Source: Nanobdellota archaeon
Lineage (GTDB): Archaea > Nanobdellota > Nanobdellia > Pacearchaeales > UBA12030
NCBI GenBank assembly: GCA_013331945.1
Contig: DUFK01000014.1
Coordinates: 9,234 to 51,912 of the forward strand
Length of the DNA stretch: 42,679 nucleotides
Direction: 5' to 3'
Shown here: positions 17,104 through 38,635 of the stretch, piece after piece
Layout of the letters: every line of letters starts with the position of its first letter
How positions within the stretch are numbered: position 1 is the stretch's first letter
Notes under the pieces: generated by a model
Seen by the model: the letters and a program-made list of their open reading frames with translations, nothing else
Told to the model about the DNA's origin: nothing
The model's database searches: none
Position numbers and translations under genes: made by a program

Positions 17104-17131
17104 TATTTCTGGCTTTGAAAGCCCAAATGCA

Positions 17132-17236: not shown

Positions 17237-18115
17237 ATGTTGGGGTGGTTTTTGCTTACAATCGCATTTATCTGGATACTTGGAGCTACAGTTACAGACC
17301 TGAAAAAGAGAGAAGTTCCTGACTGGCTAAGTATTTCCCTTGTTGCCATAGCCCTTGTTGCAAGGATGATTTACTCCCTTCTTGAGAAAGATATCTCCTT
17401 CTTCCTTCAGGGGGCGCTTTTCTTTGCCATTTTCTTTGCACTGGCAAATTTATTCTACTATGCGAGGATCTTTGCGGGAGGAGATGCAAAACTTTTGATG
17501 GGCCTTGGCGCGATTCTTGCAGCTCCGCCAGTGCTTCCTTTCTCCCAAGGCACAAGTGCTGTAATCTCAATTCCTATGCCATTCGTATTCATCCTTAATC
17601 TACTCATCGTGGGGTCTTTGTATGGATTGCTTTTCACTACTGTAGTTGCCATCAAGAACAGGAAAAGATTTTTCCCAGAATTTGTGAAGAAGTGCGGGAA
17701 GGTAAGAATATTCTTCTTGCCGGTAGCGGCTCTTGTTATAGTGGTTGCCATACTCACTATCTTCACAAAAAGTTACTTCCTTCTGCCGTTCGCGGTACTC
17801 GCGCTACTCTTTCCATTCATCCACTCCGCAATAAAAGCCCTCGAGGAAGTCGGGATGGTTTCCCTAGTGCACCCGAAAGATCTCGCTCTCGGAGACTGGC
17901 TCGCTCGAGAAGTGCGTGCAGGAGGAAAAGTGGTAAAGCCAACATGGGAAGGCCTGAGCAAAAAAGAGCTTGAGTTTCTGCAGAGGGCAAAGAAAAAAGT
18001 TCTTGTAAAGTATGGGATTCCATTCGTGCCTGCCTTTTTGCTCACTCTTTTGGCTACAATACTCTTAGGAAATCTCTTTGAATTCCTGATTAGAATAATT
18101 ATGCCCTTCTCCTAA
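17237..18115 (+). CDS. A24-family prepilin/preflagellin peptidase (PibD/FlaK-like)
   Basis: 292 aa, polytopic. First catalytic Asp region is GATVTDLKKREVPDWL; the second is RIFAGGDAKLLMGLG. Confidence 0.85.
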   Translation: MLGWFLLTIAFIWILGATVTDLKKREVPDWLSISLVAIALVARMIYSLLEKDISFFLQGALFFAIFFALANLFYYARIFAGGDAKLLMGLGAILAAPPVLPFSQGTSAVISIPMPFVFILNLLIVGSLYGLLFTTVVAIKNRKRFFPEFVKKCGKVRIFFLPVAALVIVVAILTIFTKSYFLLPFAVLALLFPFIHSAIKALEEVGMVSLVHPKDLALGDWLAREVRAGGKVVKPTWEGLSKKELEFLQRAKKKVLVKYGIPFVPAFLLTLLATILLGNLFEFLIRIIMPFS

Positions 18116-24426: not shown

Positions 24427-24522
24427 TTTCCCCTTCCCTATTTTCCCCTTGCTGGATGAGAAAGGCGGCAAAAACTTATAAATTTATGCGTGATTTTTGG
24501 CTATTTGTTGCGTGGTTGGAGG

Positions 24523-26137: not shown

Positions 26138-26971
26138 TCAGCTATCACGTATAGAGAAGGCAAAATTGAACTTTAGCTCTCCGAATTTATCCACTCCATC
26201 TGTAAAGAACACTTTTCTCTTAGAACTTGCCTCGAAGATAATGAAGTCTCCGTCTTTATTCACGACTACATTAAAACTCTTGAACTTTTCAGAGTCTAAA
26301 GAAGAGATGACGCAGGCGTACACATCCCTCTCTTTTTTACATTGCCCCATAGACTTCTTGCCTTCGCCATAAAGAGAGTAAAATTCAGAGAGGGAGAAAG
26401 GCAACTCCACACTGATTGGAGAATTGCTACTATACTGAAATTTTGGTAAGGAGTATTCCAAGCTTTTTTTAGGGGTTACTGTTAGAACCTCTTCGGAAAG
26501 TTTTATATCGAAGCCACTTTCAGCCTTGCCTGTGACGACTTTTGAGAGAGAAGTTGGGGGGATATAGAGTAAATCATTACTGCTCCAGGTTGTTTCATAC
26601 TTACCTACAGAATCTTTGAGGTACATCTCAAATCTGGATAGGAACTCCGCCTCAAACTCATTTTTTGGAGCAAGGGTACATTTAGAGTCGAACACTCTCC
26701 CATAGATGCCTGAAACAGAACATCTGCCCTCGGTCGGCGGATTTTCCGCGAGTTTGAAAATGGATTGGTCTGAAGCCAAACGTGTTGACTCTTCCAAATA
26801 AAATTGTGCCTCTCGGGCCTCTGATTGGATAGCCAGAAGCGTAAGTGGGCTCAAAACCTCATCGGCAATCTCTCCACGGAAGACAACACCTGCATAGATG
26901 GCGTAGACCGTTACAGCGATGGCTATGATTAGGATTCCGAATGCGAAAGTCGTTCCTTTTTTATTTTCCAT
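26138..26971 (-). CDS. class III signal peptide (pilin-like) protein
   Basis: 277 aa. MENKKG/TTFAFGILIIAIAVTVYAIYAGVVF. Last gene of the minus-strand operon. Confidence 0.7.
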   Translation of the reverse strand: MENKKGTTFAFGILIIAIAVTVYAIYAGVVFRGEIADEVLSPLTLLAIQSEAREAQFYLEESTRLASDQSIFKLAENPPTEGRCSVSGIYGRVFDSKCTLAPKNEFEAEFLSRFEMYLKDSVGKYETTWSSNDLLYIPPTSLSKVVTGKAESGFDIKLSEEVLTVTPKKSLEYSLPKFQYSSNSPISVELPFSLSEFYSLYGEGKKSMGQCKKERDVYACVISSLDSEKFKSFNVVVNKDGDFIIFEASSKRKVFFTDGVDKFGELKFNFAFSIRDS

Positions 26972-26993
26972 TCTCCTGTTCGTAGCTCCCAGA

Positions 26994-28472
26994 CTAGCCC
27001 GCGATCAAGACAATTGCAGATTTTTCTGGAGCTATATCATCTGTTGAGCATTTAAGGTAATTGATAGATGAAAGGATCTTCTTTTCGTTCGGGTCAAAGA
27101 AAGTATTCTCACGATTTATGTTGGCGCTCATTATCGATCTTCCAGTCTTGCCTTTATCCTCCACCTTGTTCCCTAAGCAGCAGACACCGTCTCCGATTAG
27201 GTCTGGGGATATTCCAGCAGAGATTCCACAGCAAACGTTTGGATCATTTGGATTGGTTGATGCAGGATTACATCCAAGCTCTTTTTTCAGCATATTCACG
27301 CTGGGATCACATCCGTCACTCTCGAATAATAGGGAGTTACATCCCGGAGAAAGATAGCTGCAATATTGGTCGCCGAAACCAAAGGAGCTGTGAGAGAATT
27401 CATGGAGCAATGTATCTAGACTAGTTGGGGATTCTGAATCTCCCTGAAAGATGGGGAAGATGAGATTAAATTTATCCGGCTCATACCCTAGTGCATCCAG
27501 TTTCTTACGGACAAATCCAGCCCATTCCAGCTCCCCAAGATTGTATTCCTCGAATGCAAAGAGAGAACTGCTAGGATCATCATTTCCTTGAAAAGCTGTG
27601 CTGAAATCGTTTTTAGTGAAGACATTTACATTACCGATCTTGGAATAGACTTTGCTTCTGCAATCCTTTAAAGGGAGATTATCGATAAAGAAGTCAACTA
27701 TCTTCTTCCCCTCTTTATTTGCAGCGTCTTGAGATTCCCATTCGCCAGCAGGCACTAATAAAAGTTCTATCTTGTACTTTTTCTCGGCGGGAGAAAGAGT
27801 GGAGCCTTCCCTGCCTTGCAAAGGTTCCGATGCCCCACTCAAGGTCTGCGAATTGGAGCCAGTATCGGAGAAGCTTTTTACATTGCACATAGTATTGCAT
27901 TCTTCAAAACTTTTTTCTTCCAGGCAGGAATTGTATGATTCCTTGAAGCTAAATTTAAATTTTGGATGTTGTATTACGGAGACTCGGGGCGTGAGGGGCG
28001 GTGATCCAGTTGGTGTCAAAATAGATTGCCGAGAGGGATTGCCGCTTTGTGGCTGCTCAACCCAGTTGTAGTTTATTTCACTCCCATCTGGAAATTCTAC
28101 CTTGAATGCATAGCATTCTCCATAAGTCCTCTCGAGTGCTTCATTTACTCTATCTTTAATGAGCTCTTCAGGCACATCAGCCTCGACTTTTGCTTTATAA
28201 ATCGAAAAAAACTCAGCGAAAGTCATCACTGTTTTTGGCGAATGATCCACTTCTAATTTAAGGGAGGTTTTCAATAACGATTCTGCTGGAGAGCTGTCTT
28301 CAAAGCTGAGGGCACTTTTAGTCTCGAATTCTTTCTTCAGGAAGAATGGAAAGAAGATATGCGTGACTACCAGAAATGCAAATATAATTCCTGCCAAAAA
28401 GAAGATGGCTAGCATCGTTGCGAATGCCGAGCCCATTATCCCTCGTTTTTCCGATTTCATATTTGATTTCAT
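26994..28472 (-). CDS. pilin-like N-terminus fused to a putative zinc metallopeptidase domain
   Basis: 492 aa. MKSNMKSEKRG/IMGSAFATMLAIFFLAGIIFAFLVV. The LLHEFSHSSFGFGDQYC motif (HExxH at 27390-27404) resembles HEFGHSFGGLADEY-type zincins. The C-terminus is Cys-rich (CCGISAG...GVCCLGN). Confidence 0.65.
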   Translation of the reverse strand: MKSNMKSEKRGIMGSAFATMLAIFFLAGIIFAFLVVTHIFFPFFLKKEFETKSALSFEDSSPAESLLKTSLKLEVDHSPKTVMTFAEFFSIYKAKVEADVPEELIKDRVNEALERTYGECYAFKVEFPDGSEINYNWVEQPQSGNPSRQSILTPTGSPPLTPRVSVIQHPKFKFSFKESYNSCLEEKSFEECNTMCNVKSFSDTGSNSQTLSGASEPLQGREGSTLSPAEKKYKIELLLVPAGEWESQDAANKEGKKIVDFFIDNLPLKDCRSKVYSKIGNVNVFTKNDFSTAFQGNDDPSSSLFAFEEYNLGELEWAGFVRKKLDALGYEPDKFNLIFPIFQGDSESPTSLDTLLHEFSHSSFGFGDQYCSYLSPGCNSLLFESDGCDPSVNMLKKELGCNPASTNPNDPNVCCGISAGISPDLIGDGVCCLGNKVEDKGKTGRSIMSANINRENTFFDPNEKKILSSINYLKCSTDDIAPEKSAIVLIAG

Positions 28473-28942
28473 CTTTTTTTGACTAATATTTCGATATCTA
28501 AAGTTCCTGGATGTACTGTGCCTTCGAGATTAACTGCCACATATTTCCTAGACTTACTGCAGTAAGGAGCATTTTTCTCCTCATTGAACACACAAAGTGG
28601 CTCCAAGTAATCAAATTCATCTGTCTTAGCCACAATACTTGCATCCAGGACAGTTAAATTAAGTTTAGCTCCGACTGCATCTGATGAGAGGCATTTTTCA
28701 AGTTCTTTCGAGTCGATTTTGGCGAAATCTATAACTCCAACATCCTCGTAAAAACAGGTTCCTGCTCTTTGGGAGAAAATGGCTGCTTCTATGGGAGTTA
28801 CGTCTATAGCAGAAACTAGGATAGCGATAAAAAAGGAGACTGCAAGAGCTAAGGGCAAAAGAAGAAAAAGTAGCCTGGGAATCCATAGCATACCTTCTGC
28901 TACATCCCCTTTTTTATCATTAAGCAGGTTTTTGTTTAACAT
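28469..28942 (-). CDS. possible pilin-like protein
   Basis: 157 aa. MLNKNLLNDKKG/DVAEGMLWIPRLLFLLLPLALAVSFFIAILV. Overlaps both neighbours (4 nt and 23 nt). Confidence 0.55.
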   Translation of the reverse strand: MLNKNLLNDKKGDVAEGMLWIPRLLFLLLPLALAVSFFIAILVSAIDVTPIEAAIFSQRAGTCFYEDVGVIDFAKIDSKELEKCLSSDAVGAKLNLTVLDASIVAKTDEFDYLEPLCVFNEEKNAPYCSKSRKYVAVNLEGTVHPGTLDIEILVKKR

Positions 28943-29327
28943 TTATTTCCAGTGTATTTTCAGTAGATTTTTTGGTGATCTCTTTATTCTCGTTCAGGAC
29001 TATTTTGTAAGATGTGGCTGATAAGAGTTTTGATTTTTTGATCTCCAGCTTTTTCTCTTTTTCATTTACCACTATATCGAAATTTTCTCCTTCGACTAGG
29101 GCCTTGTTCAGATTAAATGCGACGGCAGCGTCTGGATCGGAATTAAAGGCTGCGTCCAGCCATAATGCCTGCGATTTTGAGGCGAGGTTTAGTTGGAGTT
29201 TTTCTCCGTGGAGAGAGGAGTAGATAAAATATAAAAGGGAAGCACCGATGATCGCAACTATAATCAGCTTGATTATCTCATTATACAGCAATCCCATAAC
29301 TCCTCTTTTATCTTTCATCAGTCCCAT
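28920..29327 (-). CDS. class III signal peptide (pilin-like) protein
   Basis: Trimmed to the ATG at 29325-29327, 1 nt after the upstream stop: MGLMKDKRG/VMGLLYNEIIKLIIVAIIGASLLYFIY. Confidence 0.65.
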   Translation of the reverse strand: MGLMKDKRGVMGLLYNEIIKLIIVAIIGASLLYFIYSSLHGEKLQLNLASKSQALWLDAAFNSDPDAAVAFNLNKALVEGENFDIVVNEKEKKLEIKKSKLLSATSYKIVLNENKEITKKSTENTLEINVKQKPA

Positions 29328-29328
29328 T

Positions 29329-30417
29329 TTATGCTGCCCCCCCAGTTTCACCGGTTTCTTCATCTGCATAGTATTTCTTCCACTGCTGGTAGAAGCTCAA
29401 AATTCTTGATTGATAATCGCAGGTTGTTCCCGATTTCCCAGTATTATAGACGCAGAAGATGCACTTCCATTTTCCTTCCTCATCTCTGAAATTTCCAACG
29501 CAGGAGGCATAAGACCCTTCAGCCCTTCCTGAAGCCTGCTCATATGCGCTTCTGAGCGTTTTTGCGGTGCACTTCAACTGCCCTTCATCACTGAATACAT
29601 TGTCTCCAGAACACTTGCATCCTCGCTTGCAAGAAGTGGGCCATCCGCATCCGGTGAGAGCACTTTTTCCGACAGAAGTGCATTTATTGTTTGTTCCCAT
29701 CCCGCTCTCGAGTGATGCGAATGATGCGATAAGTGCAGGATCAATTCCTTTCTGAGAGGCATAATCTTCAGCGAGCTCTTTCCTCGTCTTATCAGATTTG
29801 AATGCCTTGCTTTCGTACGCCTTGACAAAGTTGGAGCTTGGAAGTTCTGTGCCTGCAGATACTCCCGGGCCAACTACAGGTGAAGTTCCTCCAAGACCTG
29901 CATCTCCATCTACATCATCAATATCCGTTCCAGCCTTTCCTGCTTTTTTATCTCCGCTTATCAGAACATAACTCGCATCCTGTGACAAGTAGACATCATA
30001 AGGCCCCTCACCGAACTCAACCTTGTTCTTGTTCCCTTCTGAATCCTGTATTTTTACATCCTTGAATACTATTTTGCAATATCCCTCTTGCTCGCAATCA
30101 GTGCTTCCGAACCATCCATTCTTGCAAAGGCATAGGCAAGAAGCTCCGGAGCAGGAATCAGGGCTTGCTCCCTTATCAGCTCCTTTATCAAAGCCTTTTA
30201 TTGTCCACCCGCTTCCGACGTAAAGGACAAAAAAGCTTGGCTGCTCCCCTGTTTTGAGTTTCTGTATCTCTGTGATGAGTGTGTTGAAGTATTCCTTCGT
30301 AACTCTTCCCTCTGTTTTAGATAGGTAGCTGGCAGTAGCGAGAATTATGAGTGCAATGAGCATCAGCAGCAGAATTATTTCAATAAAATTCTTCCTCAGC
30401 ACACCCTTTTTTTCCAT
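29329..30417 (-). CDS. pilin-like N-terminus fused to a lytic-transglycosylase (SLT)-like, Cys-rich domain
   Basis: 362 aa. MEKKG/VLRKNFIEIILLLMLIALIILATASY. The C-terminal part, GIDPALIASFASLESGMGTNN...GKSALTGCGW, resembles the SLT catalytic E-S motif region (Glu codon at 29707-29709). Confidence 0.6.
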   Translation of the reverse strand: MEKKGVLRKNFIEIILLLMLIALIILATASYLSKTEGRVTKEYFNTLITEIQKLKTGEQPSFFVLYVGSGWTIKGFDKGADKGASPDSCSGASCLCLCKNGWFGSTDCEQEGYCKIVFKDVKIQDSEGNKNKVEFGEGPYDVYLSQDASYVLISGDKKAGKAGTDIDDVDGDAGLGGTSPVVGPGVSAGTELPSSNFVKAYESKAFKSDKTRKELAEDYASQKGIDPALIASFASLESGMGTNNKCTSVGKSALTGCGWPTSCKRGCKCSGDNVFSDEGQLKCTAKTLRSAYEQASGRAEGSYASCVGNFRDEEGKWKCIFCVYNTGKSGTTCDYQSRILSFYQQWKKYYADEETGETGGAA

Positions 30418-30479
30418 TAAAGATAGAAGGAGAATTATTTTTTAAAGGTTGTTAAGAGGGGAAAAGAAAAAGGAAGAGA

Positions 30480-30674
30480 TTAAGGCAGGTTCTTCAGGCC
30501 CTCTCCGGCCCCAGATTTCGCAAGCCCGAGCATCTCGCCGATCTTTCCGAAGATCTCCCGGAAAGTTCCTGTAGTGAAGAGGAGAACGATAACAAGGATA
30601 ATCAGAATGATGATTATAGTGACAATCGTATTGGTTGGGAGGGATGTGCCTCTTTTGGCTTGTTTAGAAGGCAT
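30480..30674 (-). CDS. mini pilin-like protein (64 aa)
   Basis: MPSKQAKRG/TSLPTNTIVTIIIILIILVIVLLF. The ATG lies 1 nt after the upstream stop. Confidence 0.65.
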   Translation of the reverse strand: MPSKQAKRGTSLPTNTIVTIIIILIILVIVLLFTTGTFREIFGKIGEMLGLAKSGAGEGLKNLP

Positions 30675-30675
30675 T

Positions 30676-31023
30676 TTATTCTGGAATTATTTTTGGAGTT
30701 TCTCCAGTGCATTCTATGAATTGGCATTTCACCCCAAGGCCAGGGCAGTTAAATCCGCCTTCCTTACCCGTTATCTTTATCTCTTTGCAGAATGCGATTC
30801 CAGATCTGGTCTGACATAAGCTCTCACACTGGGCTTTCACTACATCCTCGCTCGCAGTGCCAGGCCTGTAGAATATCTCCTTGATCTTCCCTACAAGCTG
30901 TGCCATTCCGCCTGCAAAAAATGCGGCTGAAATGACAAGAACTAGCAAGGCGATGATTACGATGATTATGGTATTTGTAGAAATCTCTACTCCTCTTTTA
31001 TCGTTTAGCGGTCTTAGCTTCAT
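30676..31023 (-). CDS. class III signal peptide (pilin-like) protein with Cys-rich head
   Basis: 115 aa. MKLRPLNDKRG/VEISTNTIIIVIIALLVLVISAAFF. Has 6 Cys in the C-terminal 60 aa. Confidence 0.7.
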   Translation of the reverse strand: MKLRPLNDKRGVEISTNTIIIVIIALLVLVISAAFFAGGMAQLVGKIKEIFYRPGTASEDVVKAQCESLCQTRSGIAFCKEIKITGKEGGFNCPGLGVKCQFIECTGETPKIIPE

Positions 31024-31036
31024 CTTCCTCTTTTCT

Positions 31037-31249
31037 TTAAGATTCTAAACCCTGGCTGTTTTTAAAACTTTTCATTAGGGGAATTACCAAAGCGCCCGGT
31101 GCTGCTGGTGGTACAGGTGGCTCTCCCCCGAATACGCCGAATACTGGCTTGAGCAAAAAGGTGTAGAGTGCCCAACCGACAATCAAGAGAACCGTGATTA
31201 TCAAAATCCACTTCACAATTATCCCAGCTCCTCCTGATTCTTCTGACAT
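31037..31249 (-). CDS. small single-TM protein
   Basis: 70 aa, MSEESGGAGIIVKWILIITVLLIVGWALYTF... No K/R-G motif, so it is not clearly a pilin. Confidence 0.5.
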   Translation of the reverse strand: MSEESGGAGIIVKWILIITVLLIVGWALYTFLLKPVFGVFGGEPPVPPAAPGALVIPLMKSFKNSQGLES

Positions 31250-31284
31250 TTTCTTTTTCCTTTATCTCTTTTCTCTATACCTTT

Positions 31285-31443
31285 CTAACGCCCAAATCTC
31301 AAGATATCAAATATCCGGTCTATAAAACCTACTCCTTTTCCTTTGAGAAAGAACAAGATGAGGAATAAGACTACAAGAACCAAGAGAGCAAGAATCCACA
31401 TCGCTGTACTGCTCTCCACAAATCCTTTTTTATTTTTTGCCAT
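31285..31443 (-). CDS. mini pilin-like protein (52 aa)
   Basis: Not in the track. Hand translation: MAKNKKG/FVESSTAMWILALLVLVVLFLILFFLKGKGVGFIDRIFDILRFGR. Confidence 0.55.
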   Translation of the reverse strand: MAKNKKGFVESSTAMWILALLVLVVLFLILFFLKGKGVGFIDRIFDILRFGR

Positions 31444-31508
31444 GGTTTTGTAGCTCCTTTTTCTTCCTTGGTGCTTTCTTTGGTGGAGCTTTCTTTTTAA
31501 GAAAGGTC

Positions 31509-32417
31509 CTATGGAAGGCTCTCAAGAGAACCGCACAATTCCCCCAAGGTTTGGGCATTATATGTGGTTAAGATAACTTGGGAGCATCCGGCTTCATTAC
31601 CATTACAATACCCTGCGGCAAATACTTGATCTGTCTCTGCATTATATGCCTGATAGCCTATCACCCCTAAAAGAGATACAAGAGTTACTATTGCCCCCGC
31701 AGGGGTTTTCATTATAGATCCAATCGCCCCACCAACTGCCTTTCCACCAGGTACTTTACTGCCTAAAAAGAAAGTTCCGCCTACAGCGCCAACATCTTTT
31801 GCTAATAGATTCCACGCATCCTGAGATTCAAACCTAAAGAAGACGACGGCATAGTCTTGATCTGTTCTGATGGGTGAGATTTGAAATCCAGATGAGATAT
31901 CTGCTCCCTCCTGATCTGTGAAGTATTCTAAGTAAGTAATCTTTTTTTGGGGGATTTTTGTTTCCTTAAGATAACTTCCGAGAGAGATTGTTTTTGGGGA
32001 TTTTTGTATAGCGCCGCTGAATTTTATTGTGGAGCATATCAAACAAGAGGATTTCGCATTCGAAAGTCCAAAACTTTCACCTGTATCAAGAAAGTCGACC
32101 TTTCCTCTTCCAAGCATATCCCAACAATCATACATCGCATTCGCAACTGTTTTTTTAATCTCTTCTTCGTTCGTCGTTTTAACTCCTATCGGTTGGGTCT
32201 TGCACTGCAACTCTGGCTTTACATCATCTGGAAGCTGGTTTATTCCCCACAATCCCCTCTTCACGACAGATTCCTTGCATGCTTCCTTATCCAGTATTGC
32301 TGGAGTCTTGGCATAGAGCTGATAGATGAATACTCCGAATACAAGAAGTCCTGCAAGGCCAATCGTCCAGAGGACTACCTCATGATGTTCTTGCCCTCTT
32401 TTTTTTCTTTCTTGCAT
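31509..32417 (-). CDS. class III signal peptide (pilin-like) protein
   Basis: 302 aa. MQERKKRG/QEHHEVVLWTIGLAGLLVFGVFIY. Has a second hydrophobic stretch near the C-terminus. Confidence 0.6.
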   Translation of the reverse strand: MQERKKRGQEHHEVVLWTIGLAGLLVFGVFIYQLYAKTPAILDKEACKESVVKRGLWGINQLPDDVKPELQCKTQPIGVKTTNEEEIKKTVANAMYDCWDMLGRGKVDFLDTGESFGLSNAKSSCLICSTIKFSGAIQKSPKTISLGSYLKETKIPQKKITYLEYFTDQEGADISSGFQISPIRTDQDYAVVFFRFESQDAWNLLAKDVGAVGGTFFLGSKVPGGKAVGGAIGSIMKTPAGAIVTLVSLLGVIGYQAYNAETDQVFAAGYCNGNEAGCSQVILTTYNAQTLGELCGSLESLP

Positions 32418-32565: not shown

Positions 32566-33222
32566 CTACATAGTGTAGTGACTCATATCATTCAGGTACT
32601 GTAATTTAAAGTTCTTTCCTTGATTCCAGCAAGTGATACGGCTTACAGAGGCGTTGCCTATGGTGAAGTTCTTGAAATATCTTAGCCCTCCGAAAAGCTT
32701 TCCGACAATGAACTTTGCAGGAGCTTGATGAGTTACAATTACGATCCTCTGGCCCTCATTCTGCTTCACGATGCGCAGGAATGCGTCCCAGCACCTTTTC
32801 TCTGCGTCTGGAAAGCTCTCTCCAAGAACAACTTTAGATGGATCACCATCATCATATTTAGAGAACCAATTCTTCGCGATAGGAAGGAATCTGCTCTCGA
32901 GCTCTTCCTGTGTCATCATCTCATACTTGCCCATGTCATGCTCTCGCAGGGCTTTGTCAAATATGATCTTATAGCCATTCAAATCTGCGAGAGGCTTTAT
33001 AGTCTCAACCGCTCTGCGCAAATCACTGCTATATATCGCTGCGATCTTTTCCTTCTTCAAGCGCTGGGCAAGCTTCTTTGCTTGCTCCTTTCCCTTAGCA
33101 CTGAGACCAAGATCGTTCTTTGGATCACTGCTGAAGATATCTTTCAGATTGAGCTTGCTCTGTGCATGGCGCACAAGAAATACTTCTGTGACTTCTTTCT
33201 CTTTTGATTTTTCCTTTTTCAT
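32566..33222 (-). CDS. histidine phosphatase (phosphoglycerate mutase-like) family protein
   Basis: 218 aa. FLVRHAQSKLN (RHG-type motif), SSDLRRAVET, EHDMG and VTHQAP. Confidence 0.8.
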   Translation of the reverse strand: MKKEKSKEKEVTEVFLVRHAQSKLNLKDIFSSDPKNDLGLSAKGKEQAKKLAQRLKKEKIAAIYSSDLRRAVETIKPLADLNGYKIIFDKALREHDMGKYEMMTQEELESRFLPIAKNWFSKYDDGDPSKVVLGESFPDAEKRCWDAFLRIVKQNEGQRIVIVTHQAPAKFIVGKLFGGLRYFKNFTIGNASVSRITCWNQGKNFKLQYLNDMSHYTM

Positions 33223-33263: not shown

Positions 33264-35411
33264 CTAAGTCCCTATAGGTCCGATCTGATTCATTACAAGA
33301 GATGCGAGCAGACTTAAAACTACTATGGTGATGAATGCTACAATAAGGTAGAAGAACATCCCGCGATAAAGGGCCTTGGATATCTCATTCTTCTCAGTGA
33401 GCTTGTCGCTTCCGTTCTCTATCACAACTACAGTAGCACTCAGGATGAAGATTATCTGTATCAGATACAAGCCGATGGCGATCTGCAAGAAATAAGGCGG
33501 AATCATCTTCTCTATCTCAAATAATGTGACTATTCCCGCGGCTCCGCCGAGTCCCTCTGCTCCTCCCGATTCAAGTCCAGTCAGGAGCGTGGAAAGCTGA
33601 TTGATGATGAGAGTTATCATCACTGCAAGCCCTACAACAATCCCTCCGAGAACAGGTGCCAAAAAGGAGACATTGCTTTTCATGCTCACAACGACATCTG
33701 CGACAAGGTCTTTCAGCCTCTCTTCTATTTTGTGGATATTCTTTGCATGCTCTGAAATGCTCATAACGCTTTCAGAAGCAATCTTAAGACTTTTCTTGAC
33801 TCCTTCAACAAGTATGAACATCGAGGTCTTGATGAGTGAGGATGGGTAGAAAGTGATTGCCCCTCTTTGCCTTCCGAAGATCGCTTCCTGCACACTGGCG
33901 CCATTCTGGATATTATTGTTGACCATCATGAAGAATCTTCCTGTCGGAGTTCCACGCAGGACTTCTGCAACCCTTCCGAATGCCATTTCTGCTGGCACTC
34001 CTGCGGCAAGCCTATTCCCGAGCTGGAAGAGTGCAGAGCTGAATTCATCTTCCAGTTTCTTAGTTTCTTGTCTTGTCTTTATGAGGTTCTTGGTGCGCAT
34101 TCCGTAATTCACCGCAAAGAAAAGGCCAAGTGAAAGCGGAATAAATAGGCTAAGAAGAGTGGCGCCAACTCCAAATGGCCCAATCTGCTTTCCGCCAACA
34201 TCCTTGAAATCAAAAAAGCTTCCGATGAATGGAAGAGTGAAATCGTGCAGGCCTATCGCAGAAGAGAGTGCAGGGGAGAGCATCAGCAAGGGCAGGATTC
34301 CTAGCACAAAGAAAGGGAGTGCGATGAAGAAGGCAATCCATGTCGGCGTAGAACTCTTGTATTCTGCATATCTCGGATGTGCCTCCAAAAGTTCTGGCTC
34401 TCCATATCCTGTAGGTCTTGAAAGCAAGATCTGCGATGTAAGATAATAAACAAAGAATGGAATTATCACATTAAACATTATAATCACATGCTGCCAGGTC
34501 ATCAATCCACCAAGAAGTGCAGAGGCAAGGGGAAGCAGGGCAAGAGCCAGCGTAGGAAGCACAATCCCGAGCATGTACACATTTGTCAGAGGCGCCTTGA
34601 TGGAATGAGAGTAAGTGAGCATCTTTTCCTGCACTCCTTCGAGCATCACAGAAAGGCTTTTCTCTAAGGTTGCAACTCTCTTGCTTTCTACCGGCTCGTA
34701 GAGCGAGGATTCAATTAGGTGCATCGCCTCTGCGAATTCCAGATTCGATTCGCGCCATCTTTCAAGATAAGCATCAATGCTATCTCTCACTGTCGGATAT
34801 TTTCCTACTTCAACATCCCAGAATATCTTCTTGAAATCCAAAGAGAGGGGAGCTTGCAGATGCTCAGAGGTAAATTTTACAGCTCTCTCTAAATTCGGGG
34901 TGTGCTTCATATAGATTACGATGAAAAGCAATGCCTGAATCAGCTGCGATGAGGCCTTGAGCTGCCACTTCTTTGCCTCCATCATCGGAAAAGTGTAGAG
35001 CCAGTAATACAAGAATGCAGAGAAAGCGATTCCAAGCACAAGATACATGAAAGCGAAAGTTCCAGTGAAAACGTAAAAGGCAGCGAATGCAAAAACACTC
35101 AGCACAAGAGCGAGAATGAACATGTTGATGGCAAGGCTTGCTGCCTCTTCTGGCTTTAATTCAGAATGGATCGTTTCCAGGGCTTTTCGGAACTTTGCCG
35201 CATCTTTGGCAGATGGCTTTACCTTGATGATGGAGCCACTTATTTTTGCAGCCTTCTCGTAGCGGCTTAGGGGCTTGAATGCCTCTTGCTTGAACTGCAC
35301 ATACTCCTGAGTGAAGTTGACTCTATCTGGATTCCCGGGATCGTAGTCAAGCCCGCGCTCAAGCTCCCGCTCATACTTCTTAAGAATATCATCCACTCTC
35401 CGTGATGCCAC
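33264..35411 (-). CDS. type IV pilus/archaellum platform protein (FlaJ/TadC/PilC-like polytopic membrane protein)
   Basis: 715 aa with many TM helices and two cytoplasmic helical domains. Located near the FlaI-like ATPase. GTG start at 35409-35411; there is no nearby in-frame ATG. Confidence 0.7.
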   Translation of the reverse strand: MASRRVDDILKKYERELERGLDYDPGNPDRVNFTQEYVQFKQEAFKPLSRYEKAAKISGSIIKVKPSAKDAAKFRKALETIHSELKPEEAASLAINMFILALVLSVFAFAAFYVFTGTFAFMYLVLGIAFSAFLYYWLYTFPMMEAKKWQLKASSQLIQALLFIVIYMKHTPNLERAVKFTSEHLQAPLSLDFKKIFWDVEVGKYPTVRDSIDAYLERWRESNLEFAEAMHLIESSLYEPVESKRVATLEKSLSVMLEGVQEKMLTYSHSIKAPLTNVYMLGIVLPTLALALLPLASALLGGLMTWQHVIIMFNVIIPFFVYYLTSQILLSRPTGYGEPELLEAHPRYAEYKSSTPTWIAFFIALPFFVLGILPLLMLSPALSSAIGLHDFTLPFIGSFFDFKDVGGKQIGPFGVGATLLSLFIPLSLGLFFAVNYGMRTKNLIKTRQETKKLEDEFSSALFQLGNRLAAGVPAEMAFGRVAEVLRGTPTGRFFMMVNNNIQNGASVQEAIFGRQRGAITFYPSSLIKTSMFILVEGVKKSLKIASESVMSISEHAKNIHKIEERLKDLVADVVVSMKSNVSFLAPVLGGIVVGLAVMITLIINQLSTLLTGLESGGAEGLGGAAGIVTLFEIEKMIPPYFLQIAIGLYLIQIIFILSATVVVIENGSDKLTEKNEISKALYRGMFFYLIVAFITIVVLSLLASLVMNQIGPIGT

Positions 35412-35443: not shown

Positions 35444-35534
35444 CCTCTTTTAGTTATGGAAAGAAAACGAATACGGATTTTAAATCCTTTTGTGCCGAGA
35501 AAAAATATATAAACGTATAGCCTCTAAAGAAATA

Positions 35535-35948
35535 ATGGGACTTTTCGGGTTTGGAAAAAAGAAGGAAGCGGAGAACGCGAAGAAAGGAAAAGCGGTGGCA
35601 GATGATCGTGCCAGAACGGATGCTTATGATGAGATACAGGCTATTCTAGGCCGGATAGAAAAGACCTTTGATGGGAAGGCAAAACATGTCTTAAATGTGG
35701 CTGCATCCCGTGGGGCAGGGACAAAAACTTATACTGAAAGAGAAATCATAAAATTAAGAGCACCATTACTAGATGCGCGACATGCTCAACAACGAGGAGT
35801 CTTTCGCAATATTTTACCCAACCTCCTTAAGTTTTCTGAGCTATTGAGTAAGAGCGAATACTTTATGTCAGACGGAACCTTCTTGAGGGATATCGGGAGG
35901 GATATAACTGCCATAGAGCAGAGCCTTAAGAAAGGGAAGTATATCTGA
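35535..35948 (+). CDS. hypothetical helical protein, N-terminus MGLFGFGKKKE (orphan family)
   Basis: 137 aa from the ATG at 35535. A TATA (aatatataaa) lies about 25 nt upstream. The track ORF's upstream extension starts at a non-ATG codon. Confidence 0.6.
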   Translation: MGLFGFGKKKEAENAKKGKAVADDRARTDAYDEIQAILGRIEKTFDGKAKHVLNVAASRGAGTKTYTEREIIKLRAPLLDARHAQQRGVFRNILPNLLKFSELLSKSEYFMSDGTFLRDIGRDITAIEQSLKKGKYI

Positions 35949-35979
35949 TTTTAAATCCTTTCCTCTCGCGCTACTCAGA

Positions 35980-35991
35980 AAGGTATAAATA
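35980..35991 (+). promoter_or_regulatory. BRE/TATA element aaggtataaata
   Basis: Ends 23 nt upstream of the ATG at 36014. Confidence 0.55.
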
Positions 35992-36013
35992 GACTATTTG
36001 CTCAAAATCAAAT

Positions 36014-36376
36014 ATGGCAATTGAGCTAGGCGAGATTATAAATGTAGAGGCTAAGCTGAGCAGAGAGATCAATAAAATCAGGGAGCTGCAACGTCATGAG
36101 ATTTATGGACGGGTCCAAAAGCATAAAGAACAAATAAGCATTTTGATTAGAGTTCTCTCCAATGCATTAAATGATCTAGGGGACTGTAGAAAGGCTATTC
36201 AGAAACAAAACTATGCTAAAGGATTAAAAGACGTGCAGAAGGCAACTAACAATCTTATAGAATGCAGTAAATTCAGTTTTATTTTAGGCTTAGTTGGGAC
36301 TAACATTAGATACTTCACAAGAGAATGCGCACGCATACAGGTGTCTTTGGAAAATACTATAAGAACAGCCAGGTAA
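36014..36376 (+). CDS. hypothetical helical protein
   Basis: 120 aa, all-helical appearance, AT-rich. Its 3' end converges on the ATPase gene, 12 nt away. Confidence 0.55.
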   Translation: MAIELGEIINVEAKLSREINKIRELQRHEIYGRVQKHKEQISILIRVLSNALNDLGDCRKAIQKQNYAKGLKDVQKATNNLIECSKFSFILGLVGTNIRYFTRECARIQVSLENTIRTAR

Positions 36377-36388: not shown

Positions 36389-38635
36389 TTAAACCCTTGC
36401 CCTCTTTATCTCCTGCTTGAGCCAATCTTGCCACTCTGCAAAGATTCTCTTGCTGTCCATGTTTCCAGAGTCCCGCAGCACTTTGTCAGAGATGTTGTGG
36501 AATGCATTGTTTGATTTCACAATAAATGGGGCCTCGAGCAATGCAGGCATCTTCTCTGAAACTCGGACAAGTTCTTCCTTCATCTTCGCTCTCAGCAAGA
36601 TATTATCCCATACAGCATCCCAGTTCCCTGCCCATTCTTTTACATTTGCTGCAATCTCCTTGAGTATTTCACTCTCCCCATTCTTCAATTCATCTGTCGG
36701 CTCCAACTTATCCGTCATGGCATTGTAGCGCATCAAATCGACAAAGCCTTTCTCTGCAAGAGGATCATTCTTCCACTTCTTCCTCACTTCACTTATCTGC
36801 AAAATCCTTCTTGCAGAATGCATCCCATCAGGACTTCTTATAGGATTTGCCACAATAATGATATCTGTCGCCTTGAAACTCGTAATCGGCACGCCGAGAT
36901 CGTTTACAACTCTGTCAAAGATCGCATATGGCGAGGCTCCATGAATTGTTCCGGCAACTGTATTCGCAAGAGCACCAACCCTCATTGCTTCATAAAGTGC
37001 TTTTGCTTCTGTGCTCCTTACCTCACCGACAATCAGCACAGAGTCTCCCAATCTCAAGGAAGTTCTGATTCCTTCTTCGGCAGAAACTTCTGTGGATTCT
37101 TTCAAGAGCGCCGCGCGCACTTTCATCCTCTGCACATCATATCCCAACTTTCTTAGGGCATCTATAGGGAGTTCAAGTGTATCTTCCACAACTATCACCC
37201 TATACTTTGACATCAACTCGAAGAGCATGCTTCCGAGCAATGAGGTTTTTCCAGAGCTTCTTGTTCCTCCAACAAGCATTGTCCTGCTTCCATCAATCAA
37301 GAAACTGAGGAGGCCAGCGGCAAGCGGATCAAGCATCCCTTGCTTGATGAAAAGCGGCAGGGTCCATGGCTTCTCCCTGAATCTCCTGAACGCGAACGCA
37401 AGACCGTAAGGGGAGAGCGGCTCTTGGATGACACTCACTCTTGCTCCGACATTCTGCAACGTAAGTTCTGTATCTAAAACCGGATGTGCTTCATCAAGAG
37501 GCCTTCCGGAAATGAGCCTGAACTTCGCGGCCCAGCTTTCTGAATCCTCCCGAGAAGGAATTATGTTCGTTGCACATTCATCGTAATCTGCGTGCCTCGC
37601 AAAAATCTGCGTCATTCCGATTGGTGCATTTATCACAACGTCCTGCAGCCGCGGATCCTGCAGAAGTATCTCAACAATCCCGAAACCGACAGTATGGCGC
37701 ACAAGGATCTTTGCCAGGTTCGTCAGCTCTTTGTACTCAAGCTCAATATTTTTTGTCTGTGCCAGTTCTGCAATCAGATCTCTAGCGATATTAAAGAAAA
37801 CTCCTCGCATCCTTTCCGGATCTAGGAATTCTTCAGCCCTTGGCCTGTGCTCAAGTAGAACTTGTTTTGCCAAATCCAAGAGAGTTAAGGAATCCTCATC
37901 GAGCTTGAATTCGGGCGGCATCAAATGATAGTAATACTTCACCTCATTCTTTTTCTTCAGAATCGTGACATCGGCCTTTTCCTCCCCTTCACCAATGCTG
38001 TATTCCTCGAGAAGCTCTGCGTCCAGAGGAAGATCAGTCATCAATCTTGTGAAAGTGAAATTTGGCAGCACTTCCGGTCTCAAGATGTCAGCGTAAATCA
38101 TCCTATCTCCGACGCGATGACCCGCGAGTTTATCCTTTATCCCAGAGATGAGTGCACTCTTATCGAGTAGAGAGTAGATTTTCTCAAGCCTGCGCAAGTA
38201 CTCGCCAGAGCGCGGTGCCTGCACTTGCAACGCTTTCTCCTCGCGGATGAGTCTTTTTGCAGTAACGTAGGCTCCAACAGGATCTGATCTAATGAGAGTA
38301 AGGACAATGTAATTCAAGAACCCGAGCTTGTCTTGCTCCAAGTTCCCCAGCGAAAGCACTCTTTCTTCTTTCGTCAGAAAATTGTAGATATTTGAGATCT
38401 CGATAAGGGCTTGTGTCTGATCATAGGAATAAGCATAGTTTTTCTGTTGGGAAAGGACAATGCGACTCACACGGGAATTTTCAATGAGATTATCCATGAT
38501 TCGGGCCATCATCGCCGCGTCATCAGAGATGCTCGGGACAAGGGCATAGCCAAAGCAGTTCACGTACATGACATCTTCTGATCCTTCCTTGATCACTTCG
38601 TAACCGAAAAGCTTTGTTTCCTGCCTGAAGATCAT
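36389..38635 (-). CDS. type IV pilus/archaellum assembly ATPase (FlaI/PilB/VirB11 superfamily), enlarged
   Basis: 748 aa. Walker A (GGTRSSGKTS), Walker B/Asp box (RVIVVEDTLEL), and LIVGEVRSTEA. The N-terminal region before the ATPase core is long. Confidence 0.88.
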   Translation of the reverse strand: MIFRQETKLFGYEVIKEGSEDVMYVNCFGYALVPSISDDAAMMARIMDNLIENSRVSRIVLSQQKNYAYSYDQTQALIEISNIYNFLTKEERVLSLGNLEQDKLGFLNYIVLTLIRSDPVGAYVTAKRLIREEKALQVQAPRSGEYLRRLEKIYSLLDKSALISGIKDKLAGHRVGDRMIYADILRPEVLPNFTFTRLMTDLPLDAELLEEYSIGEGEEKADVTILKKKNEVKYYYHLMPPEFKLDEDSLTLLDLAKQVLLEHRPRAEEFLDPERMRGVFFNIARDLIAELAQTKNIELEYKELTNLAKILVRHTVGFGIVEILLQDPRLQDVVINAPIGMTQIFARHADYDECATNIIPSREDSESWAAKFRLISGRPLDEAHPVLDTELTLQNVGARVSVIQEPLSPYGLAFAFRRFREKPWTLPLFIKQGMLDPLAAGLLSFLIDGSRTMLVGGTRSSGKTSLLGSMLFELMSKYRVIVVEDTLELPIDALRKLGYDVQRMKVRAALLKESTEVSAEEGIRTSLRLGDSVLIVGEVRSTEAKALYEAMRVGALANTVAGTIHGASPYAIFDRVVNDLGVPITSFKATDIIIVANPIRSPDGMHSARRILQISEVRKKWKNDPLAEKGFVDLMRYNAMTDKLEPTDELKNGESEILKEIAANVKEWAGNWDAVWDNILLRAKMKEELVRVSEKMPALLEAPFIVKSNNAFHNISDKVLRDSGNMDSKRIFAEWQDWLKQEIKRARV

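What the first reader, a model, noticed from the sequence alone, without database searches (positions are those of the whole stretch)
29329..30417. Pilin-like anchor fused to a lytic-transglycosylase-like domain in an archaeon
The C-terminal ~170 aa contain QKGIDPALIASFASLESGMGTNN...GKSALTGCGW. This parallels the SLT/goose-lysozyme catalytic region (..DP.L..A.....ES.F......S..GA.GLMQ) and is embedded in a Cys-rich scaffold. The N-terminus, MEKKG/VLRKNFIEIILLLMLIALIIL, is pilin-like. Archaea do not make murein, so a murein-type glycosidase points to attack on a bacterial or pseudomurein-containing partner, or to local remodelling for filament passage, as with the SLT enzymes attached to bacterial secretion and pilus machines (established knowledge). 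Transglycosylase genes have, as far as I recall, been noted in DPANN-type genomes. The pilin-type tethering inside a pilus operon is the new element.
Basis: partly seen in the sequence, partly recalled or inferred. Interest (0 to 1): 0.65.

Follow-up and report, generated by a model that had tools for sequence, protein, structure and literature searches.

The report
Archaeal pilin-like protein carrying a muramidase
A tiny symbiotic-type archaeon (Pacearchaeota-like) has grafted a divergent, cysteine-rich lysozyme-type enzyme that should cut bacterial cell walls onto one subunit of its pilus-like surface machine, which suggests how such archaea could breach bacterial partners.

Summary
The 362-aa ORF (29329-30417, minus) is real and codon 29707-29709 encodes Glu237.

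- **C-terminal domain.** Residues 190-356 fold with high confidence (pLDDT 96.6) into a lysozyme-superfamily domain closest to goose-type lysozymes and lytic transglycosylases (GH23). Glu237 is kept in 60 of 62 relatives. Pfam and NCBIfam do not recognise the domain.
- **Fusion partners.** Elsewhere the domain is fused mostly to peptidoglycan hydrolases: NlpC/P60, amidase, M23 and D-Ala-D-Ala peptidases.
- **N-terminus.** It carries the motif [N/D]-K-[K/R]-[G/A] followed by a hydrophobic helix. Sixty-two of 73 ORFs in eight syntenic clusters share this motif.
- **Cluster.** The gene sits in a conserved Pacearchaeota cluster next to a type IV pilus-type ATPase and a polytopic membrane protein. 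A prepilin peptidase lies 11 kb away.
- **Grafting.** In related genomes the same slot holds the N-module alone (157-167 aa), the N-module plus a canonical SLT domain, or a 1305-aa multi-hydrolase. The glycosidase is therefore a grafted module.

Murein transglycosylases in DPANN archaea and modular pilins in bacteria are both published. The combination and the unrecognised domain family are a new variant. Signal-peptide cleavage, filament incorporation and enzyme activity are all untested.

The parts
29329..30417 (-). Whole ORF, 362 aa: modular pilin-like protein with a C-terminal lysozyme-like domain
   Evidence: ORF list. Five-member orthologue group. Conserved position in syntenic clusters.
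30403..30417 (-). Putative class III leader MEKKG (K at -2, G at -1 of the predicted prepilin-peptidase site)
   Evidence: K3 and G5 are invariant in six slot proteins from five other loci. The motif [ND]-K-[KR]-[GA] occurs in 62 of 73 cluster ORFs. Cleavage itself is inferred.
30328..30402 (-). Residues 6-30: short basic stretch (VLRKN) then a hydrophobic helix (FIEIILLLMLIALIILATASY)
   Evidence: Kyte-Doolittle maximum 2.93 over residues 11-29. Modelled as part of one long helix, residues 3-55, at low confidence.
29938..30327 (-). N-module, residues 31-160: end of the long helix plus a beta-rich part with 6 Cys (CLCLC motif); the 'pilin-like' body
   Evidence: Best BLASTP hit in three other Pacearchaeota loci is the positional counterpart, which stands alone as 167 and 157 aa proteins in two of them. 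Alignment A7 has invariant D77, L95, C96, C98, C108, C114. The fold is only modelled at pLDDT 56-79.
29851..29937 (-). Gly/Asp/Ala-rich linker, residues 161-189
   Evidence: pLDDT below 50 over residues 158-210 in the full-length model. Poorly conserved and gapped among orthologues.
29350..29850 (-). Cys-rich lysozyme-superfamily (GH23-like) domain, residues 190-356
   Evidence: AF2 pLDDT 96.6, pTM 0.91. Foldseek top 50 in PDB are all peptidoglycan glycosidases, best g-type lysozymes with TM 0.5-0.59. Viral library gives the same kind of matches. The family has 66 representative clusters.
29707..29709 (-). Codon of Glu237, predicted catalytic acid (E-S motif)
   Evidence: E in 60 of 62 and S/T238 in 60 of 62 family members. 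Aligned to the ES of goose-type lysozymes by HMMER.
26138..29369 (-). Four downstream co-directional ORFs (277, 492, 157, 149 aa), each with K[KR]G + one N-terminal hydrophobic helix
   Evidence: Orthologous ORFs sit in the same order in L001, L004 and L009.
30480..32417 (-). Five upstream co-directional ORFs (64, 115, 70, 52, 302 aa), all with one N-terminal hydrophobic helix, four with K[KR]G
33264..35411 (-). 715-aa polytopic membrane protein, candidate pilus platform (TadB/FlaJ-like)
   Evidence: About 10 predicted TM segments. It lies next to the ATPase in all loci. More than 3050 homologues, some named 'Flp pilus assembly protein TadB' by JGI. No Pfam, NCBIfam or PDB sequence match.
36389..38635 (-). 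748-aa type IV pilus/archaellum-type assembly ATPase
   Evidence: Pfam T2SSE E 1.4e-15. NCBIfam TadA 2.6e-37, FlaI 1e-35, bindosome BasE 8e-19, all below equivalog cut-offs.
17237..18115 (+). Prepilin/preflagellin peptidase (Peptidase_A24, FlaK-like)
   Evidence: Pfam PF01478 E 8.3e-13, above cut-off. NCBIfam FlaK_Arch 9.6e-12. Also present near the cluster in L001.

Best explanation
The gene encodes a modular, pilin-like surface protein of a Pacearchaeota-type (DPANN) archaeon.

Shown:
- It has a conserved N-terminal motif ([N/D]-K-[K/R]-[G/A], then a hydrophobic helix).
- It has an N-module of about 130 aa that occurs on its own in the same cluster slot of related genomes.
- It has a flexible linker.
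- It has a disulfide-rich C-terminal domain with a lysozyme-superfamily (GH23-like) fold and a conserved Glu-Ser catalytic motif.

Inferred:
- The leader is cut after Gly5 by the genome's A24 prepilin peptidase.
- The hydrophobic helix then either anchors the protein in the membrane or inserts it as a minor, probably tip-located, subunit of the filament built by the adjacent ATPase/platform machine.
- The C-terminal module cleaves the MurNAc-GlcNAc backbone of bacterial peptidoglycan at the contact site with a bacterial host or prey. This opens the wall locally for attachment, feeding or lysis.

Whether it acts as a hydrolase (lysozyme) or a lytic transglycosylase cannot be told from sequence.
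For: - **Fold and active site.** AF2 model of residues 190-356 has pLDDT 96.6. All top-50 PDB and all named viral Foldseek matches are lysozyme-type peptidoglycan glycosidases. Profile-to-PDB hits align on the catalytic Glu. E237 is kept in 60 of 62 members, with LTGC 254-257, Q280, C306, C319 and Y324 near-invariant.
- **Murein as substrate.** In 55 family members the domain is fused to NLPC_P60 (12), Amidase_2 (5), Peptidase_M23 (4), CHAP (3), M15/VanY (5), Muramidase (2) and PG_binding_1 (2).
- **Natural module swap.** The positional orthologues P0005 and the L012 359-aa protein keep the N-module but carry a canonical SLT domain (ES, GLMQ, AYNTG).
- **Grafting.** The slot proteins in L011 and L013 are the N-module alone. 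In L007 the slot holds a 1305-aa protein; this architecture class carries NlpC/P60 and VanY-type modules beside the Cys-rich domain.
- **Pilin-like context.** Nine of 10 cluster ORFs carry the motif against 4 of 48 elsewhere in the window (Fisher p 6e-7), and 62 of 73 do so across eight loci. A T2SSE ATPase, a polytopic partner and a Peptidase_A24 are present. The published criterion for archaeal SPase III sites is a basic residue at -2 with the key residues at -2, -1 and +1 (PMC3387779).
- **Divergence pattern.** The machine protein is 71% identical between two MAGs, the target only 42%. This is as expected for an exposed, fast-evolving subunit.
Against: - No pilin family model hits the N-terminus.
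- The N-module fold is only modelled at pLDDT 56-79 and gave no pilin match. The profile-to-PDB search gave only a non-significant PilE1 hit (E 1.1).
- Arg and Lys at +3/+4 (VLRKN) follow the predicted cleavage site, whereas classical pilins are hydrophobic from +1.
- The 715-aa membrane protein has no detectable T2SSF/FlaJ signature.
- The window protein does not reach Pfam SLT threshold, and the GLMQ motif is replaced by LTGC.
- Profile-profile comparison with the two canonical-SLT orthologues was not significant.
- No bacterial partner is known and no activity data exist.
Confidence: 0.6

Rival explanations
1. The N-terminus is an ordinary uncleaved signal-anchor. The protein is a membrane-tethered ectoenzyme and the neighbouring ORFs form a membrane complex or pseudopilus-less assembly. 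The glycosidase acts at the cell surface but is never part of a filament.
For: Basic residues at +3/+4 after Gly5 fit a positive-inside cytoplasmic stub. There are no pilin-family hits and no confident pilin fold. No T2SSF signature is found on the putative platform.
Against: A plain signal anchor does not need an invariant small residue after K-[KR]. The [ND]-K-[KR]-[GA] motif is kept in 62 of 73 ORFs across eight loci, and G5 is invariant in the slot proteins. An A24 peptidase and a pilus-type ATPase are present.
Confidence: 0.2
2. The domain acts on a glycan other than bacterial murein: chitin, pseudomurein or another beta-linked amino-sugar polymer of an archaeal host or of the organism's own envelope.
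For: Some GH23/g-type lysozymes also cleave chitin oligomers (established knowledge). Known cultivated DPANN hosts are archaea. The domain is too divergent to infer subsite specificity (Pfam below threshold). Non-murein partners also occur in the family (Metallophos 5, GDSL 3).
Against: The commonest fusion partners cleave murein-specific bonds: MurNAc-L-Ala amidase, D-Ala-D-Ala peptidases, NlpC/P60 and M23, with PG_binding_1 also present. Pseudomurein has beta-1,3 links and no D-amino acids and is lysozyme-resistant (established knowledge). Positional orthologues carry a textbook SLT.
Confidence: 0.1
3. The lysozyme-like module is a non-catalytic glycan-binding adhesin that only attaches the archaeon to bacterial walls.
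For: Castelle et al. 2021 suggested binding as well as degradation for DPANN transglycosylase-domain proteins (PMC8204110). Two distant family members have lost the Glu.
Against: The Glu-Ser pair is kept in 60 of 62 members over deep divergence (27% mean column identity). This argues for selection on catalysis.
Confidence: 0.05
4. The enzyme remodels the producer's own wall to let the filament pass, as SLT enzymes do in bacterial secretion and pilus machines.
For: Analogy with VirB1, FlgJ and PilMx-type transglycosylases (established knowledge). The gene lies inside the machine's cluster.
Against: Archaea of this group have no murein (established knowledge) and no murein-synthesis genes were seen among the annotated ORFs of the window. 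Related genomes have the same cluster with the slot protein lacking any glycosidase module, so the machine does not need it.
Confidence: 0.03

Closest known systems
GH23 enzymes: goose-type lysozymes and family-1 lytic transglycosylases (Pfam SLT PF01464; e.g. GEWL 153L, cod g-lysozyme 3GXK, E. coli MltE/MltC)
   Same: All-helical lysozyme fold (TM 0.5-0.59 to g-type lysozymes). Catalytic Glu followed by Ser at the end of a helix. A Y-N-x-G-like motif (VYNTG). Association with other murein hydrolases.
   Different: About 16-20% identity and below Pfam threshold. GLMQ is replaced by LTGC. There is a Cys-rich insertion after that motif and ten conserved Cys in all. The host is archaeal.
[quoted passage not shown] 2021, PMC8204110; Vigneron et al. 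2022, PMC9723730) and archaeal peptidoglycan hydrolases (Strock et al. 2025, PMC12352652)
   Same: DPANN archaea encoding murein-type glycosidases, proposed to target bacterial walls. Relatives of the present domain also occur in multi-hydrolase proteins of 1000 aa or more.
   Different: Those reports rest on recognisable SLT/GH23 or PG-binding domains and do not mention pili, pilins or class III signal peptides. Strock et al. scored only Sec/Tat signals and found them in 32% of the proteins. This protein is small, is missed by Pfam, and sits in a pilus-type cluster.
Modular type IV pilins of bacteria (PilB/PilC of Streptococcus sanguinis; Raynaud et al. 2021, PMC8179133)
   Same: A small pilin-type module, a short linker and a grafted functional module, proposed to sit at the filament tip. 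The module-less form exists in relatives.
   Different: That survey was of bacterial IPR012902 pilins, with mostly adhesive modules. Here the system is archaeal, the module is a muralytic enzyme, and the pilin nature is inferred rather than shown.
[quoted passage not shown]
   Same: Functional extracellular proteins that use the class III signal/prepilin-peptidase route and a T4P-like assembly system. The window's ATPase has a weak hit to bindosome ATPase BasE.
   Different: The cargo is a wall-degrading enzyme, not a solute-binding protein. The lineage and cluster composition differ.
Machine-associated transglycosylases of bacteria (VirB1, FlgJ, phage tail lysins, T6SS effector Tse3)
   Same: A lysozyme-fold enzyme physically coupled to a trans-envelope nanomachine. 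FlgJ and Tse3 are among the structural matches.
   Different: VirB1 and FlgJ open the producer's own wall. Here the producer has no murein, so the target must be another cell, which is closer in logic to phage tail lysins and Tse3.

Membership tests
Lysozyme-like superfamily, GH23 (SLT / goose-type lysozyme) | All-alpha lysozyme fold with a substrate groove between two lobes | tested here: met
   pLDDT 96.6 model. Top 50 PDB matches are all lysozyme-type glycosidases, g-type lysozymes first (prob 1.0, TM 0.5-0.59). Viral library matches are LT_GEWL/SLT proteins.
Lysozyme-like superfamily, GH23 (SLT / goose-type lysozyme) | Catalytic Glu followed by Ser (motif I, E-S) at the end of the helix after the 'DPxLxxA' stretch | tested here: met
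   E237 in 60 of 62 and S/T238 in 60 of 62 members. HMMER aligns it to the ES of goose-type lysozymes.
Lysozyme-like superfamily, GH23 (SLT / goose-type lysozyme) | Motif II G-L-M-Q | tested here: not met
   The aligned position reads A-L-T-G-C in the window protein. L254/T255/G256/C257 are conserved in 53-58 of 62 members. The canonical-SLT orthologues have GLMQ/GLIQ there.
Lysozyme-like superfamily, GH23 (SLT / goose-type lysozyme) | Motif III A-Y-N-x-G | tested here: inconclusive
   The window has V-Y-N-T-G and Y324 is kept in 58 of 62 members, but N and G vary (commonest Y-Q-G). Equivalence rests on MAFFT alignment A7 and a non-significant HMMER stretch.
Lysozyme-like superfamily, GH23 (SLT / goose-type lysozyme) | Score above the Pfam SLT (PF01464) gathering threshold | tested here: not met
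   The window protein has no SLT hit, only Glucosaminidase at E 0.046. Close homologues score 12-16 bits against a cut-off of 21.3. Only P0005 passes, at 25.3 bits.
Lysozyme-like superfamily, GH23 (SLT / goose-type lysozyme) | Cleavage of the MurNAc-beta-1,4-GlcNAc bond of murein | not testable with these tools
   Needs enzyme assays. Indirect support comes from fusion to murein hydrolases.
Archaeal type IV pilin-like proteins (class III signal peptide substrates) | Short leader with a basic residue at -2 and Gly/Ala at -1 (PMC3387779) | tested here: met
   MEKKG|V. K3 and G5 are invariant in six slot proteins. The consensus [ND]-K-[KR]-[GA] occurs in 62 of 73 cluster ORFs.
Archaeal type IV pilin-like proteins (class III signal peptide substrates) | Hydrophobic stretch of about 20 aa directly after the cleavage site | tested here: inconclusive
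   A hydrophobic helix is present (residues 11-29, KD 2.93), but it starts after VLRKN, with basic residues at +3 and +4.
Archaeal type IV pilin-like proteins (class III signal peptide substrates) | Cognate prepilin peptidase (Peptidase_A24) in the genome | tested here: met
   17237-18115 (+), PF01478 E 8.3e-13. FlaK_Arch 9.6e-12.
Archaeal type IV pilin-like proteins (class III signal peptide substrates) | Linkage to a T4P-type assembly ATPase and a polytopic platform protein | tested here: inconclusive
   The ATPase criterion is met (T2SSE 1.4e-15). The adjacent 715-aa polytopic protein has no T2SSF/FlaJ hit and only a JGI label 'TadB' on some homologues.
Archaeal type IV pilin-like proteins (class III signal peptide substrates) | Pilin fold: N-terminal helix of about 50 residues packed on an antiparallel beta-sheet | tested here: inconclusive
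   The full-length model shows helix 3-55 followed by seven strands, but at pLDDT 56-79. Foldseek on it gave no meaningful match.
Archaeal type IV pilin-like proteins (class III signal peptide substrates) | Leader cleavage and polymerisation into a filament | not testable with these tools
   Requires biochemistry, proteomics or imaging.
Modular pilins (pilin module + linker + functional module; PMC8179133) | The pilin-type module exists independently and the extra module is separable | tested here: met
   Stand-alone 167-aa and 157-aa slot proteins match the N-module (E 6.7e-9 and 2e-3 in a 31-protein database; alignment A7). The C-module is exchanged for a canonical SLT in P0005 and L012. The linker is disordered.
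DPANN large murein-like transglycosylase family fam00969 (PMC8204110) | Membership of that protein cluster | not tested
The window protein is much smaller (362 aa), and its domain is not detected by the SLT model that defined those proteins.

The most novel reading that the evidence does not exclude
The conserved Pacearchaeota pilus-like machine is a contact-dependent wall-breaching device. One minor-pilin slot is a swappable 'warhead' position that different lineages have loaded with a Cys-rich GH23-like muramidase, a canonical SLT, or a multi-enzyme murein-degrading protein. A second slot in this window carries an extra HExxH-containing module of about 300 aa. On this reading the filament tip drills through the peptidoglycan of bacterial hosts, which would identify bacteria as hosts of these archaea and give the first mechanism for cross-domain DPANN episymbiosis or predation.
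Probability: 0.3. Interest if true: 0.8.

Novelty: new variant of a known kind. Interest (0 to 1): 0.6.

Why it matters
The hosts of Pacearchaeota and Woesearchaeota, and how they interact with them, are unknown. Murein transglycosylase genes are the main published hint that some of these archaea live on bacteria.

This locus adds three things:
- **A delivery route.** The glycosidase is a module on a pilin-like subunit of a conserved surface machine. That makes the idea testable through leader cleavage, filament proteomics and tip labelling.
- **A natural experiment.** The same slot is found empty, with a canonical SLT, or with the Cys-rich domain. This argues that the module is an accessory weapon rather than part of the machine.
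- **An uncatalogued domain family.** A lysozyme-fold domain family of at least 66 representative clusters is missed by Pfam and NCBIfam, so surveys of archaeal peptidoglycan hydrolases undercount them.

It may also explain part of the 68% of archaeal peptidoglycan hydrolases reported without a Sec/Tat signal (PMC12352652). About 17 of 59 full-length relatives carry the class III-like N-terminus.

Tried and rejected
- **Full-length AF2 model.** With only five sequences it gave pLDDT 54. Foldseek on it gave noise, so the N-module fold stays unresolved.
- **N-module profile against PDB.** No significant hit was found. PilE1 at E 1.1 is not evidence.
- **hhalign of the domain family against the two canonical-SLT orthologues.** Not significant: probability 0.5% and 2.7%, with single-sequence templates.
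- **Word-indexed search with the 48-sequence domain alignment.** Only four proteins were returned.
- **GTDB scan.** With the close alignment it found only two Nanoarchaeota MAGs, so the taxonomic breadth of the family is not settled.
- **Cluster-member look-up.** It gave no organism names.
- **PHROGs and NCBIfam.** Nothing was found for the target or for the large pilin-like neighbours.
- **The 492-aa HExxH neighbour.** No PDB sequence match.
- **The 715-aa membrane protein.** No T2SSF/FlaJ match by Pfam, NCBIfam or PDB profile.
- **FlaFind pattern.** The original paper (PMC1797317) is not held. I used the criteria quoted in PMC3387779 instead.
- **Rejected readings.** Self-wall remodelling is rejected because the producer has no murein and the cluster occurs without the module. 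Pseudomurein as target is rejected because the fusion partners are murein-specific.
- **Correction.** An early note counted 11 cluster ORFs. The correct count is 10, of which 9 carry the motif.
Full report
**1. The observation**

The window has an ATG-to-stop ORF of 362 aa at 29329..30417 on the minus strand. The codon at 29707-29709 is GAG (Glu237) on the coding strand. The protein has 16 cysteines, six in residues 89-114 and ten in residues 246-333.

**2. Anatomy of the protein**

Four parts can be told apart.
- Residues 1-30 are MEKKG, a short basic stretch, and a strongly hydrophobic helix (Kyte-Doolittle maximum 2.93).
- Residues 31-160 form an N-module with a CLCLC motif. In the shallow full-length model this is the end of one long helix (residues 3-55) followed by seven strands, at pLDDT 56-79 only.
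- Residues 161-189 are a Gly/Asp/Ala-rich linker. It is poorly conserved and modelled below pLDDT 50.

**3. The C-terminal domain is a divergent lysozyme-fold glycosidase**

Sequence libraries do not recognise it. The window protein has only a Glucosaminidase hit at E 0.046 in Pfam and nothing in NCBIfam. Three of its four close homologues give sub-threshold SLT or SLT_2 hits on the same helix.

An exhaustive profile search with the domain found 66 representative clusters, 51 of them below 1e-10, mostly inside proteins of 450-2300 aa. In a 62-sequence alignment:
- Glu237 is kept in 60 sequences and Ser/Thr238 in 60.
- Leu254, Thr255, Gly256 and Cys257 are kept in 53-58.
- Gln280 is kept in 61, Cys306 and Cys319 in all 62, and Tyr324 in 58.

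A 48-sequence profile searched against PDB sequences returns goose-type lysozymes, MltC and a phage cell-wall hydrolase as 10 of its 11 hits. The best E-value is 0.0011, and all are aligned on the catalytic Glu-Ser.

With that alignment AlphaFold2 gives pLDDT 96.6 and pTM 0.91. Foldseek against the PDB returns only peptidoglycan glycosidases in the top 50: g-type lysozymes first (probability 1.0, TM 0.5-0.59), then FlgJ, AtlE, MltE/F/C and Tse3. The viral library gives LT_GEWL, SLT and muramidase proteins.

E-values are modest (about 0.01) and identity is 16-20%, so this is a distant branch. It fails the Pfam SLT threshold and has LTGC where SLT has GLMQ.

**4. What it acts on**

Fifty-five full-length family members were scanned in Pfam. 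The partners were:
- Murein-related: NLPC_P60 (12 members), Amidase_2 (5), Peptidase_M23 (4), CHAP (3), SLT (3), Peptidase_M15 (3), VanY (2), Muramidase (2), PG_binding_1 (2).
- Other: Metallophos (5) and GDSL (3).

MurNAc-L-Ala amidases and D-Ala-D-Ala peptidases have substrates only in bacterial murein. Pseudomurein has neither bond and is lysozyme-resistant (established knowledge). This points to bacterial peptidoglycan. Hydrolase versus lytic transglycosylase chemistry cannot be decided from sequence.

**5. The genomic setting**

The gene is the fifth of ten consecutive minus-strand ORFs (26138-32417). Each has a single N-terminal hydrophobic helix, and nine are preceded by K-[KR]-G. Only 4 of the 48 other non-overlapping ORFs of the window fit the same loose rule (Fisher p 6e-7).

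Upstream lie:
- a histidine phosphatase gene;
- a 715-aa protein with about ten TM segments;
- two plus-strand ORFs, not examined;
- a 748-aa ATPase of the T2SSE/FlaI/TadA kind.

A Peptidase_A24 gene (FlaK-like) is at 17237-18115. RadA and RPA follow the cluster.

The same order is found in MAGs labelled Nanoarchaeota and Candidatus Pacearchaeota: ATPase, polytopic protein, a run of short TM proteins, then RPA and RadA. Across eight loci, 62 of 73 cluster ORFs carry [N/D]-K-[K/R]-[G/A] before the hydrophobic stretch, with Lys at -3 in 58 of the 62.

Published work gives a basic residue at -2, with -1 and +1, as the key features of archaeal prepilin-peptidase sites (PMC3387779). A motif this sharp is hard to explain by the positive-inside rule alone.

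The polytopic protein has more than 3050 homologues. The named ones are mostly Pacearchaeota, and JGI calls some 'Flp pilus assembly protein TadB'. It has no Pfam, NCBIfam or PDB sequence match. I treat it as a candidate platform only.

**6. The glycosidase is a grafted module**

The equivalent slot in other genomes holds one of the following:
- the N-module plus the Cys-rich domain (P0002, P0003, P0004);
- the N-module plus a canonical SLT domain, in P0005 (passes the Pfam cut-off) and in the 359-aa protein of L012 (ES, GLMQ, AYNTG);
- the N-module alone, 167 aa in L011 and 157 aa in L013;
- a 1305-aa protein with the same type of N-terminus and the Cys-rich domain in L007, of the architecture class that carries NlpC/P60 and VanY-type modules.

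BLASTP of the window's N-module picks exactly these positional counterparts as best hits (E 6.7e-9, 3.8e-4 and 2e-3 in a 31-protein database). The alignment keeps K3, G5, D77 and four cysteines invariant.

So the cluster works without a glycosidase, and different lineages have attached different muralytic modules to the same subunit. The machine protein is 71% identical between two MAGs, while the target is only 42% identical. That pattern fits an exposed, fast-evolving part.

**7. Most likely mechanism**

- Shown: domain architecture, fold, conserved catalytic motif, motif-bearing cluster, presence of ATPase and peptidase, and modularity.
- Inferred: cleavage after Gly5 by the A24 peptidase; membrane anchoring or incorporation as a minor, probably tip-located, subunit; local cleavage of the glycan strands of a bacterial partner's wall.

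I put about 0.9 on the lysozyme-fold glycosidase, about 0.75 on murein as substrate, about 0.6 on class III processing, and about 0.35 on actual filament incorporation.

The main rival is a plain signal anchor, supported by Arg/Lys at +3/+4 and by the lack of any pilin-family hit. Other substrates, pure binding and self-wall remodelling are less likely, for the reasons given in the rival entries.

**8. Comparison with what is known**

Murein transglycosylase genes in Woese-/Pacearchaeota are published (PMC8204110, PMC9723730). Archaeal peptidoglycan hydrolases that kill bacteria have been demonstrated (PMC12352652). None of these papers mentions pili or class III signals. The last one scored only Sec/Tat signals and found them in 32% of cases.

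Modular pilins, with a functional module grafted on a pilin and probably tip-displayed, are established in bacteria (PMC8179133). The Sulfolobus bindosome shows that archaea route non-pilin proteins through class III signals (PMC3387779).

The present case combines these ideas in an archaeon with a muralytic module, and it uncovers a domain family missed by the standard libraries. I rate it a new variant of a known kind, with interest 0.6.

**9. Limits**

No activity, cleavage or localisation data exist. The N-module fold is unresolved. The platform assignment is weak. The taxonomy of most of the 66 family clusters was not determined. At least some members have ordinary signal peptides or polytopic N-termini, and a few may not be archaeal.

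Noticed in passing
window 26994-28472 (-): The 492-aa pilin-like neighbour has 14 Cys and an HExxH motif (LLHEFSHSSFGFGDQYC). Its positional counterparts in L001, L009 and L004 are only 185, 187 and 166 aa. It may be a second modular subunit, with a grafted metallopeptidase-like module of about 300 aa. No Pfam, NCBIfam, PHROGs or PDB match was found.
   Followed up: partly
window 21943-24471 (-): RadA (842 aa) is interrupted by an intein with a LAGLIDADG homing-endonuclease domain. RadA in the syntenic loci is 321-339 aa, so the intein is specific to this genome.
   Followed up: partly
window 33264-35411 (-): The 715-aa polytopic protein next to the pilus ATPase has more than 3050 homologues (mostly labelled Pacearchaeota, more than 50% identical) yet matches no Pfam or NCBIfam model. 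If it is the pilus platform, it is an uncatalogued, very divergent form.
   Followed up: partly
window 16657-17154 (-) and 15108-16613 (-): A cupredoxin-domain protein (VKRG|QSTIPVAV) and a 501-aa protein of unknown function also carry the basic-Gly + hydrophobic N-terminus. They lie next to the Peptidase_A24 gene, in the same arrangement as in L001. They are possible further substrates of the peptidase.
   Followed up: no
window 32566-33222 (-): A histidine phosphatase (His_Phos_1) gene sits between the platform-like gene and the pilin-like run, here and in L001. In L012 and L013 it lies elsewhere near the cluster. Its role is unknown.
   Followed up: no
P0010, P0014, P0025-P0027, P0033, P0034, P0040, P0054, P0065, P0066, P0069: A second architecture of the Cys-rich lysozyme-like domain: a long charged N-terminus, a block of many TM helices, a beta-rich region, then the domain at the C-terminus (some members read as carrying a further peptidase module). 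This looks like a different membrane-embedded delivery or anchoring system.
   Followed up: no
P0019, P0037, P0070 (locus L008), P0041 (locus L015): Some family members combine the domain with PG_binding_1 or a Hint module and have Sec-type signal peptides. L008 has sparse, short gene calls and L015 has a weak Pkr1 hit, so these may not be archaeal. The origin and direction of transfer of the domain remain open.
   Followed up: partly
window 28920-29369 (-): The listed start of this ORF overlaps the target's 3' end by 41 nt. Orthologues begin at the equivalent of Met18 (MKDKRG...), which would put its start just after the target's stop. This suggests tight translational coupling rather than a real overlap.
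   Followed up: no
L001 3840-4845; window 35490-36376 (+): In L001 a HEPN/nucleotidyltransferase toxin-antitoxin pair is inserted on the opposite strand between the ATPase and the platform-like gene. The window has two unexamined plus-strand ORFs (152 and 120 aa) in the same place.
   Followed up: no
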